Positions 9,640 through 15,858 of a DNA stretch of 64,000 nt are shown here, piece by piece. The DNA is from the human T2T-CHM13v2.0 reference genome, Homo sapiens. The notes under the pieces are model-generated. The model saw only the letters and a list, made by a program, of their open reading frames with translations. It was not told the DNA's origin and did not search any database. The stretch lies in NCBI RefSeq assembly GCF_009914755.1, contig NC_060927.1; one strand, 5' to 3'. Positions within the stretch are counted from its first letter, which is position 1. Each line of letters begins with the position of its first letter. The translations under genes and the position numbers were made by a program.

Positions 9640-10145
<506 letters not shown>

Positions 10146-13920: not shown

Positions 13921-14023
13921 TTAAAATTAAGCATTTTTTTTCTATCAGACATCTAAGTGAGACATTGGGTAAGCCATGGGTAAGGGAGTCTAGAAGCCTT
14001 TTCTATAACATTAGAGGATGTAG

Positions 14024-14106
14024 CTCATTCTGTCTTGTCACCACCAGGTAAGAAGTGCCTTTCACCCTCTGCCATGATTCTGAGGCCTCCCCAGCCATGT
14101 GGAACT
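14024..14106 (+). mobile_element. THE1 (ERVL-MaLR) LTR internal fragment, from about the start site to the splice donor
   Basis: CTCATTC..GTAAGAAGTGCCTTTC..GCCATGATTCTGAGGCCTCCCCAGCCATGTGGAACT matches the THE1 LTR consensus as I recall it. It stops exactly where GTRAGT would follow. Confidence 0.88.
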
Positions 14107-15711
14107 ACATGTGCATTGCCATTGTGATTTCTCTTCTCATGATCCTGATATGTGCTATTGGCTACTTACAGAGCATACAAGCAACACATAGCCTAGATCC
14201 TCCCATTCTTCTGTTACCAGATCTTTAATTTTGCCCTGAATACCTTGGTTGCAATCACTGTGCTTGTTTATCCAAACGGCATTCAGGAATACATACGACA
14301 ACTGCCTCCGAATTTTCCCTACAGAGATGATGTCATGTCAGTGAATCCTACCTGTTTGGTCCTTATTATTCTTCTGTTTATTAGCATTATCTTGACTTTT
14401 AAGGGTTACTTGATTAGCTGTTTTGGAACTGCTATCAATGCCAGGAACTCCTCTGATGTCCTGACTTACATTACCAGCAATGACACTGCCCCTGTATGAT
14501 GATACCACTGTGAATGGTGCTGCCAAGGAGCCACCACCACCTTCCATGTCTGCCTAAGCCTTCAAGTGGGCAGAGCTGAGGGCAGCAGCTTGACTTTTAG
14601 GACATCTGCGAAATAGTTCTGTTATTTCACTTCTGCAATGAGCTCTCTGAGCTTGTTTGTTGCTGAAATGCTACTTTTAAAAGTTTAGATGTTAGGTTGA
14701 AGCCTGTAGTTTTTAACGTATGCTTTGCTAGAACACTGTGATAGATTAGCTATAGAATTCTTTCTGTAGGATTGGGGGTGTAACGGGCTTCACTAACCTT
14801 CCCTAGGCACTGAAACTTCCCCCAAATCTGATGGACCTAGAGTCAGAGAAGTCCACTTTTGTACCTGCTGGGACCCAAAGTTGAGCAGTTAGTCACATTT
14901 TTTCTCTCTGTTCCCTCTCTTTTGAAAGTGTAAAATAAAATCAAAAATAGACAACTTTTTCTTAAGCCATTCCAGTGTAGAAAACAAAACCTTATGAAAA
15001 CAGGAATGTCAATTATGTAATCATTATTCTAATTAGTTAAATAGAAGTCCTTATGTATGTGTTACAAGAATTTCCCCCATAACATCCTTTATGATTTAAG
15101 TTCGATGACAGTTTGCGCTTGGTGGTAAAGGATTTTCTCCATGGCCTGAATTAAGACCATTAGAAAACACCAGGCCATGGGAGCAGTAACCATCTGATGA
15201 CTGTTCTTGTGCATCTGGTGTCCAGGGACATGGGCGACGTGCCTCATCTGTGTTAGAGGGTGGAACAGATGTGTTTGGCACTGCATGGGATCTGGTGTTC
15301 CTCTTCTCCTGGATTCACATCCCCACCCAAGGCCCTCTTAAGTGTTCTGCCCTAGCCTGGTTCAAGGAGGTCATCCAACTGACTTTATCAAGTGGAATTG
15401 GGATATATTTGATATACATTTGCCTAACAACACGGAAAAGGGTTTTCCTCCTTCTTTCCCTGCAAGGGACATCCTACTGCTTTGAACGTCCAAGTATGCC
15501 TAGTCATCTTTTAAAATGTAAACGTTTTCAGAGAAATGAGGTTTGCTTTCCTTGTATGTGCTTATTATCTTGACTACCTGAATTGCGAGGGATTTTTATA
15601 TATTCATATGTTCCAAAGTCAGCAACTCTCCTGTTGGTTCATTATTGAATGTGCTGTAAATGAAGTCTTTTGCAACTAAAATGAGATTTGACCACATCCA
15701 AAGAAAAAAAA
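14024..15711 (+). pseudogene. LAPTM4BP2: LAPTM4B processed pseudogene with a THE1-LTR-derived first exon; LAPTM4B sequence from 14107, stop 14555-14557, long 3'UTR, polyA
   Basis: IQEYIRQLPPNFPYRDDVMSVNPTCLVLIILLFISIILTFKGYLISC matches LAPTM4B. Intronless, with frameshifts and a stop. PolyA ~15700-15711. 14-bp TSD ATTAGAGGATGTAG at 14010-14023 and 15712-15725. Pseudogene number from memory. Confidence 0.93.
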
Positions 15712-15858
15712 ATTAGAGGATGTAGTTTTCCACCAATCAGAGCAATCCAAACAAATCCAAAAGTTGAGTTTGGACTCAGTGGAAGGAGGCAGATTAGGCT
15801 TTTTTTTTTGGCTTCAGTGAGGTTCAAGAAAACTGAGTCCTCTCTTTGGTCCATGATT

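What the first reader, a model, noticed from the sequence alone, without database searches (positions are those of the whole stretch)
14010..15725. Fossil cDNA of a THE1-LTR-driven, spliced LAPTM4B isoform
Seen: a 14-bp TSD (14010-14023 / 15712-15725) brackets both the LAPTM4B copy and the 83 nt before it (14024-14106), so they inserted as one RNA. Those 83 nt are THE1 LTR ending in ...CCATGTGGAACT and joined directly to ACATGTGCATT. The LTR sequence normally 5' and 3' of this stretch is absent. Known: MaLR LTRs have a splice donor at GAACT|GTRAG (an intact one is at 9754-9764 in this window) and act as promoters in oocytes, early embryos, DUX4-expressing cells and tumours. From memory, the fragment starts roughly 25-30 nt after the THE1 TATA-like motif, and ACATGTGC is the first sequence of LAPTM4B exon 3 (the GCCA|ACATG junction). 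Inference: this is a complete, start-site-to-polyA retrocopy of an LTR-initiated chimeric LAPTM4B mRNA, not a 5'-truncated one. To become heritable it must have been expressed in the germline or early embryo of a primate ancestor. I do not know whether this isoform has been described.
Basis: partly seen in the sequence, partly recalled or inferred. Interest (0 to 1): 0.9.

Follow-up and report, generated by a model that had tools for sequence, protein, structure and literature searches.

The report
Retrocopy preserving an LTR-LAPTM4B spliced transcript
This is an old, dead copy of a LAPTM4B messenger RNA whose first 83 bases come from a retroviral-type repeat inside the LAPTM4B gene, so it records an ancient hybrid transcript that was probably started by that repeat.

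Summary
An exact 14-nt direct repeat (14010-14023 / 15712-15725) brackets one poly(A)-tailed insert. The insert is 83 nt of MaLR-type LTR joined directly to LAPTM4B exons 3-7.

The source LTR was found. The best non-self match in the human genome (40 scored of 1804 candidates) lies inside LAPTM4B intron 2, on the sense strand. A canonical GT donor follows it at once. Exon 3 starts just after an AG at the base where the retrocopy switches sequence. Splicing, not template switching, made the junction.

"LTR-driven" is likely but not shown. In 8 of 10 full-matching kin copies a T/A-rich motif starts 28-30 nt before the retrocopy's first base. Against this, a public baboon LAPTM4B prediction uses the same LTR donor as an internal cassette exon.

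In the human parent copy, an Alu piece now replaces the roughly 25 nt that carry this motif in kin.

Age is roughly 25-45 million years: 43 changes on the retrocopy's own lineage in 1081 sites. The family is ERVL-MaLR of the THE1 type. The subfamily could not be named with these tools.

The retrocopy is an ordinary pseudogene, and the isoform it records is interesting.

The parts
14010..14023 (+). 5' copy of the target-site duplication (host DNA). It may start at 14007 if the 17-nt version with one mismatch is the true duplication.
   Evidence: Exact 14-nt repeat of 15712-15725.
14024..14106 (+). 83-nt LTR-derived first exon of the retrocopied RNA (ERVL-MaLR, THE1-type LTR). It ends at the LTR's own splice donor.
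   Evidence: Best non-self genome match is chr8:98932443-98932524 on the + strand, inside LAPTM4B intron 2, at 77 of 82 aligned bases. The parent copy is followed at once by a GT donor. Kin copies continue on both sides.
14107..15701 (+). Intronless copy of LAPTM4B exons 3-7. Approximate exon bounds: exon 3 14107-14181, exon 4 14182-14304, exon 5 14305-14403, exon 6 14404 to about 14485, exon 7 about 14486-15701. The reading frame is broken (host pseudogene). RefSeq LAPTM4BP2 covers only 14107-14754 of it.
   Evidence: BLAST to the parent exons. Splice sites of the parent exons. 128 differences in 1579 aligned sites, K2P 0.087. Frameshifts and stops appear in the translation.
15702..15711 (+). 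[quoted passage not shown] It was added at a proximal LAPTM4B polyadenylation site, about 413 nt before the RefSeq gene end.
   Evidence: Run of A after the last parent-matching base. The parent 3'UTR has ATTAAA about 20 nt before that point. Gene end.
15712..15725 (+). 3' copy of the target-site duplication (host DNA).

Best explanation
Shown: window 14024-15711 is a LINE-1-type processed pseudogene, flanked by a 14-17 nt target-site duplication. Its template was a hybrid LAPTM4B mRNA. That mRNA's first exon is 83 nt of a sense-oriented solo MaLR (THE1-type) LTR in LAPTM4B intron 2 (chr8:98932443-98932524 in T2T-CHM13). The LTR lies about 1.5 kb after exon 2 and 8.25 kb before exon 3. The LTR's own GT donor was spliced to the normal acceptor of exon 3. 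Exons 3-7 followed, and the RNA was polyadenylated at a proximal ATTAAA site.

Inferred: the RNA started inside the LTR, at or within a few bases of window 14024. The LTR therefore acted as an alternative promoter in germline or early-embryo cells of an anthropoid ancestor, roughly 25-45 million years ago. An RNA must be present in such cells for its copy to become heritable.

The LTR exon carries a start codon in frame with LAPTM4B. The RNA could therefore encode a protein that lacks the parts encoded by exons 1-2. An out-of-frame upstream start codon precedes it.

The parent LTR keeps a consensus-type donor but lacks the poly(A)-signal-like hexamer that most kin have just after it. That would favour splicing over early termination.

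In today's human parent copy, an Alu piece replaces the roughly 25 nt that hold the T/A-rich core-promoter motif in kin. This promoter is therefore probably no longer intact in humans.
For: - Target-site duplication and poly(A) tail.
- Parent LTR: it ranks first of the 39 non-self matches scored out of 1804 candidates (126 bits; the next scores 123). It lies inside LAPTM4B on the sense strand. It is the only match to the LTR piece in the 100 kb fetched around the gene.
- Chance of such a copy: the 23-nt stretch has 11516 places in 3.117 Gb and intron 2 is 9830 nt. By my arithmetic, the expected number of sense copies in intron 2 by chance is about 0.018.
- A GT donor directly follows the matching stretch. 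An AG acceptor directly precedes exon 3.
- One site is shared by retrocopy and parent and found in 0 of 7 kin; another is found in 1 of 7.
- Start site: a T/A-rich motif starts 28-30 nt before the retrocopy's first base in 8 of 10 full-matching kin (5 of 7, 3 of 3). An initiator-like match (YYANWYY, recalled consensus) overlaps the first bases.
- The retrocopy holds 32 contiguous LTR bases upstream of the acceptor used in baboon. It was therefore not made from that cassette form.
- The in-frame start codon is seen.
- 15 of 18 kin have a poly(A)-signal-like hexamer within 20 nt after the donor. The parent has none but keeps GT.
- Literature, read as passages only. THE1 LTRs start transcripts in human oocytes, and MaLR consensus LTRs carry a canonical donor (PMC6102241). 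A THE1B LTR starts CSF1R transcripts and contains the donor used (PMC5134097). THE1B-HEY1 chimeric transcripts occur in testis (PMC3836709). Donor and poly(A) signal lie close together near LTR start sites (PMC12999487, section 9 read).
Against: - No direct 5'-end evidence exists. LINE-1-made copies are often 5'-truncated (PMC5470649, passages).
- The T/A-rich motif is not a canonical TATA box in most kin. It is absent at the expected spacing in 2 of 10.
- In the present human parent copy an Alu piece sits only about 17 nt upstream of the base that equals 14024. I could not date it relative to the retrocopy. If it was already there, the start-site argument from kin fails.
- A baboon prediction (P0024) shows the same donor used by an RNA that comes from upstream.
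- A pyrimidine tract followed by AG in the 5' part of the parent LTR could serve as an acceptor for a longer cassette exon (read by eye).
- None of the 99 listed family copies coincides with a RefSeq gene start, so annotation gave no test of the family's start site.
- The subfamily name was not verified.
Confidence: 0.65

Rival explanations
1. Exonised LTR plus 5' truncation. The RNA started at the normal LAPTM4B promoter or another upstream promoter. It included a long LTR-derived internal exon, or retained upstream intron sequence, that ended at the same donor. The LINE-1 copy was then cut short inside that exon at 14024.
For: - Baboon UniRef entry P0024 (240 aa) is otherwise canonical LAPTM4B. 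Between its exon-2 and exon-3 residues it has an 18-residue insert. 17 of those 18 residues equal the window's LTR piece read in the junction frame.
- 5' truncation is common (PMC5470649, passages).
- A possible upstream acceptor lies in the parent LTR (by eye).
- New World monkey entries P0002 and P0009 start with exon-2-like residues before the junction.
Against: - The retrocopy did not use the baboon acceptor. It has 32 contiguous LTR bases upstream of it.
- No RNA or prediction with a longer cassette exon was seen.
- The 5' end would fall by chance 28-30 nt after the T/A-rich motif.
- In the junction frame such a longer exon carries a stop, so the RNA would be non-productive.
Confidence: 0.3
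2. Template switch during LINE-1 reverse transcription. The enzyme jumped from a 5'-truncated LAPTM4B mRNA to an unrelated LTR transcript.
For: Chimeric retrocopies made by template switching exist (PMC5470649, passages).
Against: The junction is at a GT donor on one side and at the first base of exon 3 on the other. The best-matching LTR copy in the whole genome lies in the intron just upstream of that exon, on the same strand.
Confidence: 0.02
3. An LTR fragment was already at the chr3 site and the LAPTM4B cDNA landed next to it. Alternatively, an LTR-element particle made the copy (LTR-mediated retroposition).
For: None beyond the presence of LTR sequence next to a retrocopy.
Against: The target-site duplication encloses both parts. 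The fragment ends exactly at the donor. LTR sequence is on one side only, and the 3' end is a poly(A) tail, which are LINE-1 hallmarks. LTR-mediated copies are flanked by LTR sequence on both sides (PMC5470649, passages).
Confidence: 0.01

Closest known systems
LINE-1-made processed pseudogenes that preserve unannotated or extinct splice forms ('genomic fossils' of the transcriptome; Shemesh et al. 2006, recalled; I did not read the paper and saw the phrase only as a counted match in my search of PMC5470649)
   Same: Intronless, poly(A)-tailed, flanked by a target-site duplication. It records an exon combination that differs from the reference mRNA.
   Different: Here the extra exon is an LTR piece. 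Its source copy can be pinned to one intronic LTR, and that LTR's core-promoter region has since been overwritten in the human parent gene.
THE1/MaLR LTR alternative promoters with an LTR-borne splice donor. Examples: THE1B-CSF1R (PMC5134097), THE1B-HEY1 (PMC3836709), THE1-initiated transcripts in human oocytes (PMC6102241), THE1D promoters in human embryos (PMC10616205). All were read as passages.
   Same: A sense LTR upstream of a host exon, the LTR's own donor joined to a normal host acceptor, and activity in germline-related tissues.
   Different: This case is intronic, so it skips coding exons 1-2. It is known only from a DNA fossil and not from RNA. Promoter use is inferred. No searched paper text names LAPTM4B in this context.
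Baboon LAPTM4B predicted isoform (P0024, UniRef, Papio anubis)
   Same: The same LTR, the same donor and the same exon-3 acceptor.
   Different: In baboon the LTR stretch is a 51-nt in-frame internal exon entered from exon 2. The human retrocopy's LTR exon begins 32 nt further upstream and has nothing before it.
LAPTM4BP1 (chr1), the other human LAPTM4B retrocopy
   Same: Same parent gene and same mechanism.
   Different: It is a canonical exon 1-2-3 form with no LTR exon. It is more diverged (86.9% against 89.6% identity to exon 7) and carries an Alu inside exon 4.

Membership tests
LINE-1-mediated processed pseudogene | Exons joined exactly at parental splice junctions, with no introns | tested here: met
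   Exons 3-7 are colinear with the parent exons. The parent has AG/GT at every boundary.
LINE-1-mediated processed pseudogene | Poly(A) tail downstream of a polyadenylation signal of the parent | tested here: met
   An A run follows the last matching base. The parent has ATTAAA about 20 nt upstream.
LINE-1-mediated processed pseudogene | Target-site duplication of about 7-20 nt flanking the whole insert | tested here: met
   14 nt exact, or 17 nt with one mismatch.
LINE-1-mediated processed pseudogene | Insertion at a T-rich/A-rich endonuclease site (TT/AAAA type; consensus recalled) | tested here: inconclusive
   The 17-nt version of the duplication starts AAC after a T. The resemblance is only loose.
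ERVL-MaLR LTR, THE1 group | Dispersed high-copy repeat on both strands | tested here: met
   5731 forward and 5785 reverse places for a 23-nt stretch at up to 1 mismatch; reversed control 0.
ERVL-MaLR LTR, THE1 group | A unit of about 350 nt with fixed ends, found alone or next to a shared internal region | tested here: met
   Kin share common ends about 345-352 nt apart. 5 of 8 kin continue into a shared sequence more than 300 nt beyond the LTR start. The parent copy is solo, with no second copy in 100 kb.
ERVL-MaLR LTR, THE1 group | Short target-site duplication of the LTR element itself at the parent locus (5 nt; length recalled) | tested here: inconclusive
   The five bases on either side of the parent LTR agree at 3 of 5 positions (by eye).
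ERVL-MaLR LTR, THE1 group | Match to a named family model (THE1A-D as against MST) | not testable with these tools
   No repeat library was on hand. Of 10 unselected kin, only 3 match all 83 nt, so the piece belongs to one subfamily among several.
LTR-initiated chimeric host transcript | Sense LTR upstream of the host acceptor exon, with the LTR's own donor used | tested here: met
LTR-initiated chimeric host transcript | RNA 5' end at the LTR's transcription start | tested here: inconclusive
   A T/A-rich motif lies 28-30 nt upstream in 8 of 10 kin. There are no RNA 5'-end data. An Alu piece now replaces that stretch in the parent.
LTR-initiated chimeric host transcript | Promoter activity in germline or early embryo | not testable with these tools
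   This follows only from heritability of the retrocopy and from what is published for the family (PMC6102241, PMC3836709, passages).
Template-switch chimeric retrocopy | Junction unrelated to splice sites, with a 5' partner from an unlinked RNA | tested here: not met
   The junction sits at a donor and an acceptor. The 5' partner maps to the intron just upstream.
Exonised LTR cassette as annotated in baboon | LTR exon begins at the internal acceptor and is preceded by exon 2 | tested here: not met
   The retrocopy has 32 contiguous LTR bases upstream of that acceptor and no exon 2.

The most novel reading that the evidence does not exclude
The intron-2 LTR of LAPTM4B was a long-lived germline or early-embryo promoter in anthropoid primates. 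It produced an N-terminally shortened LAPTM4B from a start codon inside the LTR. The RNA was abundant enough to be retrocopied independently in the human lineage (this locus) and in New World monkeys: four predicted proteins from three species carry the same junction. In the human lineage the promoter was later disabled when an Alu piece overwrote its core, leaving only the donor, which baboon still uses in a cassette exon. The retrocopy would then be the only record of an extinct promoter of a cancer-relevant lysosomal gene.
Probability: 0.25. Interest if true: 0.6.

Novelty: new member of a known kind. Interest (0 to 1): 0.5.

Why it matters
The locus shows, from genome sequence alone, that an LTR inside LAPTM4B supplied a spliced first exon, and probably a promoter, tens of millions of years ago. 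Retrocopies of this kind can be used as dated records of LTR-driven germline transcription.

It also flags three practical points:
- The RefSeq bounds of LAPTM4BP2 miss the LTR exon and about 950 nt of 3'UTR.
- The LTR's donor is still used in a baboon prediction.
- Human RNA data should be checked for an LTR-containing LAPTM4B form, bearing in mind that the human copy's core-promoter stretch is now replaced by Alu sequence.

As a gene the retrocopy is dead. The value of the locus is historical and methodological.

Tried and rejected
- Template switch, a pre-existing LTR fragment and LTR-mediated retroposition were rejected (see rivals).
- Orthology of the New World monkey proteins with the human retrocopy was not established. 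Several shared changes sit at CpG sites and recur in parallel. All 5 New World monkey entries share one residue that the human parent, the human retrocopy and baboon lack. They are therefore more likely separate copies. Protein data alone cannot settle this.
- Using a histidine/arginine difference in exon 4 to date the retrocopy against the human-baboon split was dropped, because it is a CpG change found on both sides in other mammals.
- The test of the family's start site by annotation failed. 0 of 99 listed family copies lie within 400 nt downstream of a same-strand RefSeq gene start. Neither of the two chr3 hits checked overlaps an exon.
- I did not date the Alu piece in the parent LTR. That would have needed a consensus, which is barred, or other primates, which were not available.
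- Paper searches gave nothing relevant. LAPTM4B with THE1 gave 2 irrelevant hits. LAPTM4B with LTR and chimeric transcript gave 1 hit. That hit is a congress abstract book of which only the first 300,000 characters are held, and those contain neither of the two terms I looked for there, LAPTM4B and chimeric transcript. LAPTM4B with retrotransposon and alternative promoter gave 0 hits. LAPTM4B with transposable element and isoform gave 4 hits: that same abstract book and three papers judged irrelevant from the listing. LAPTM4BP2 alone gave 1 unrelated hit.
- Supplementary tables of the oocyte, embryo and DUX4 papers were closed. They may list LAPTM4B among LTR-initiated transcripts.
- Caps: requests for 20-kb regions returned 10 kb each. 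Both cuts therefore went on the parent gene and LAPTM4BP1, and none was left to fetch a named THE1 copy for subfamily naming.
Full report
OBSERVATION

The 14-nt string ATTAGAGGATGTAG occurs exactly at 14010-14023 and again at 15712-15725. The repeat extends to 17 nt with one mismatch. A run of A precedes the 3' copy.

Two blocks lie between the repeats. Window 14024-14106 is LTR sequence. Window 14107-15701 is an intronless copy of LAPTM4B exons 3-7. RefSeq annotates only 14107-14754 as LAPTM4BP2.

FINDING THE SOURCE

LAPTM4B lies at chr8:98901267-98978513 on the + strand. I searched the whole reference with window 14024-14179. Of 1804 candidates, 40 were scored.

The best non-self match was chr8:98932443-98932524 on the + strand (126 bits, 94% identity). 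It lies inside LAPTM4B. The next 38 matches were LTR copies elsewhere, at 123 bits or less. No second locus matched across the junction, so the genome holds no other copy of this hybrid.

I fetched the gene in two cuts and mapped the retrocopy onto it. The host exons lie at these chr8 positions:
- exon 2: 98930836-98930946
- exon 3: 98940777-98940850
- exon 4: 98941510-98941632
- exon 5: 98944593-98944691
- exon 6: 98950494-98950589
- exon 7: from 98976897

The numbering rests on LAPTM4BP1 on chr1, a canonical retrocopy that carries exons 1, 2 and 3 in order.

The LTR therefore lies in intron 2, about 1.5 kb after exon 2 and 8.25 kb before exon 3. In the parent, the stretch that matches the retrocopy is followed at once by a consensus-type GT donor. 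Exon 3 is preceded by AG and begins ACATGTGC. The retrocopy switches from LTR to host exactly there.

The 23-nt end of the LTR piece has 11516 places in the genome. By my arithmetic, the chance expectation of a sense copy in the 9830-nt intron is about 0.018, before counting that this copy is also the top match.

Retrocopy and parent differ at 6 of 83 LTR positions. By comparison with 7 kin, 4 changes fall on the parent lineage and 1-2 on the retrocopy. One shared variant is seen in 0 of 7 kin.

The junction is therefore a splice. The RNA came from this locus.

THE LTR

The parent copy is a solo LTR. No second copy lies in the 100 kb fetched.

Kin copies share fixed ends about 345-352 nt apart. 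Five of 8 continue into a shared internal region, as expected for an LTR element. Both strands are equally populated in the genome.

Of 10 unselected kin, 3 match the full 83 nt at 84.5-87.8% identity. The other 7 match only the last 35-63 nt. The piece therefore belongs to one subfamily of a larger group.

From recall, the ends and general layout are those of the THE1 group of ERVL-MaLR. I could not test THE1A-D against MST. There is no viral gene here, no envelope, and nothing young or near whole.

WAS THE LTR THE PROMOTER?

Evidence for:
- In 8 of 10 full-matching kin a T/A-rich motif begins 28-30 nt before the base that equals the retrocopy's first base.
- An initiator-like match overlaps that base. 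The consensus is recalled.
- Donor and poly(A) signal close together just downstream of the start is a published LTR layout (PMC12999487, section 9). Here 15 of 18 kin have a GT and 15 of 18 have a poly(A)-signal-like hexamer within 20 nt. The parent copy keeps the donor but lacks the hexamer.
- THE1 LTRs start transcripts in human oocytes (PMC6102241) and testis (PMC3836709). One is the promoter and donor of CSF1R transcripts in lymphoma (PMC5134097). These papers were read as passages.

Evidence against:
- LINE-1 copies are often 5'-truncated (PMC5470649, passages).
- A word search with an open piece of the retrocopy, followed by one with the N-terminal 40 residues of a hit, gave 123 proteins. 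Five of them carry the residues that span the LTR-exon 3 junction.
- One of the five is a baboon UniRef entry (P0024) that is otherwise canonical LAPTM4B. Between its exon-2 and exon-3 residues it has an 18-residue insert. 17 of those 18 residues equal the window's LTR piece read in that frame, within a 32-of-36 local alignment.
- In baboon the LTR is therefore an in-frame 51-nt cassette exon, entered from exon 2 through an acceptor inside the LTR.

The human retrocopy did not come from that form. It carries 32 contiguous LTR bases upstream of that acceptor and no exon 2. Even so, the baboon entry shows that this LTR can be exonised.

I put LTR initiation at about 0.65 and exonisation plus truncation at about 0.3.

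THE PARENT COPY TODAY

A sense Alu piece of about 225 nt interrupts the human parent LTR at about L016:934-1159. It lacks both of its own ends and has no poly(A) tail. It replaces roughly 25 nt of the LTR, and in 6 kin that stretch holds the T/A-rich motif.

If the Alu piece came after the retrocopy, the promoter recorded here is no longer intact in humans. I could not date it.

CODING

The LTR exon has a start codon in frame with LAPTM4B, preceded by an out-of-frame one. The RNA could encode a protein that lacks the exon 1-2 parts, with 155 host residues from exon 3 onward.

The retrocopy itself has frameshifts, stops and deletions. It is a dead host pseudogene.

AGE

Retrocopy and parent differ at 128 of 1579 sites (K2P 0.087). 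At non-CpG sites they differ at 100 of 1521.

With LAPTM4BP1 as outgroup over 1081 sites, 43 changes fall on the retrocopy's lineage, 29 on the parent's, and 4 are ambiguous. At non-CpG sites, 32 of 1020 fall on the retrocopy's lineage.

The recalled human-macaque divergence is about 3.2% per lineage over 25-30 million years. Against that yardstick the insertion dates to roughly 25-45 million years ago, near the base of the catarrhines.

The LTR must be older. It is present in baboon (P0024). Four New World monkey predictions carry the same junction: P0002, P0003, P0009 and P0019. Its insertion therefore probably predates the split of Old and New World monkeys. That fits published statements that THE1 was active early in primates (PMC3836709, PMC5134097, passages).

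All five New World monkey entries share a residue that the human and baboon sequences lack. This suggests they are separate retrocopies made in that lineage. Without their DNA this stays open.

VERDICT

Promoter use is the best reading but rests on inference.

The kind of thing is known: LTR promoters and donors, and retrocopies as transcript fossils. This instance, with its traceable and since-damaged source LTR, appears not to be in the paper texts I could search.

Noticed in passing
window 14107-14754 against 14024-15711: The RefSeq bounds of LAPTM4BP2 cover only 648 nt. They leave out the LTR exon and about 950 nt of 3'UTR-derived sequence that still aligns to the parent at about 90% identity.
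   Followed up: yes
L016 about 934-1159 (chr8 about 98932200-98932425): A sense Alu piece lies inside the parent LTR. It lacks both of its own ends and has no poly(A) tail, and it replaces about 25 nt of LTR. This is not a standard Alu insertion. Its age relative to the retrocopy is unknown.
   Followed up: partly
P0024 (Papio anubis, 240 aa): The baboon LAPTM4B prediction has the LTR stretch as an in-frame cassette exon. Its first 30 residues look Alu-derived (by eye, recalled pattern), which suggests an alternative first exon in intron 1.
   Followed up: partly
P0002, P0009, P0003, P0019 (Cebus, Aotus, Saimiri x2): These New World monkey 'LAPTM4B' predictions of 144-161 aa carry the LTR-exon 3 junction residues. 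They look like retrocopies, with deletions and many substitutions. P0002 and P0009 begin with exon-2-like residues, which I could not explain without their DNA.
   Followed up: partly
L016 about 1259-1280 and 18 kin loci: The parent LTR keeps the GT donor but lacks the poly(A)-signal-like hexamer that 15 of 18 kin have within 20 nt after it.
   Followed up: yes
L020 (chr1:152516343-152518699, minus strand): LAPTM4BP1 is a canonical exon 1-2-3 retrocopy. It is older than LAPTM4BP2 by divergence and has an Alu inserted in its exon 4 part.
   Followed up: partly
window 14305-14403 against 14182-14304: Divergence from the parent is uneven: 1 of 99 sites in exon 5 against 14 of 123 in exon 4. LAPTM4BP1 is also nearly unchanged in exon 5 (98% identity). 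No explanation was tested.
   Followed up: no
window 15640-15711; L019 6790-6835: The retrocopied RNA ended at a proximal LAPTM4B polyadenylation site, with ATTAAA about 20 nt upstream in the parent. This is about 413 nt before the RefSeq gene end.
   Followed up: yes
It is flanked by Alu sequence on both sides. I read it by eye only.
   Followed up: no
human LAPTM4B exon 4 (chr8:98941510-98941632): The human parent protein differs from baboon, other mammals and both retrocopy readings at two exon-4 residues. These are parent-lineage changes after the retrocopy split, and at least one is at a CpG site.
   Followed up: no
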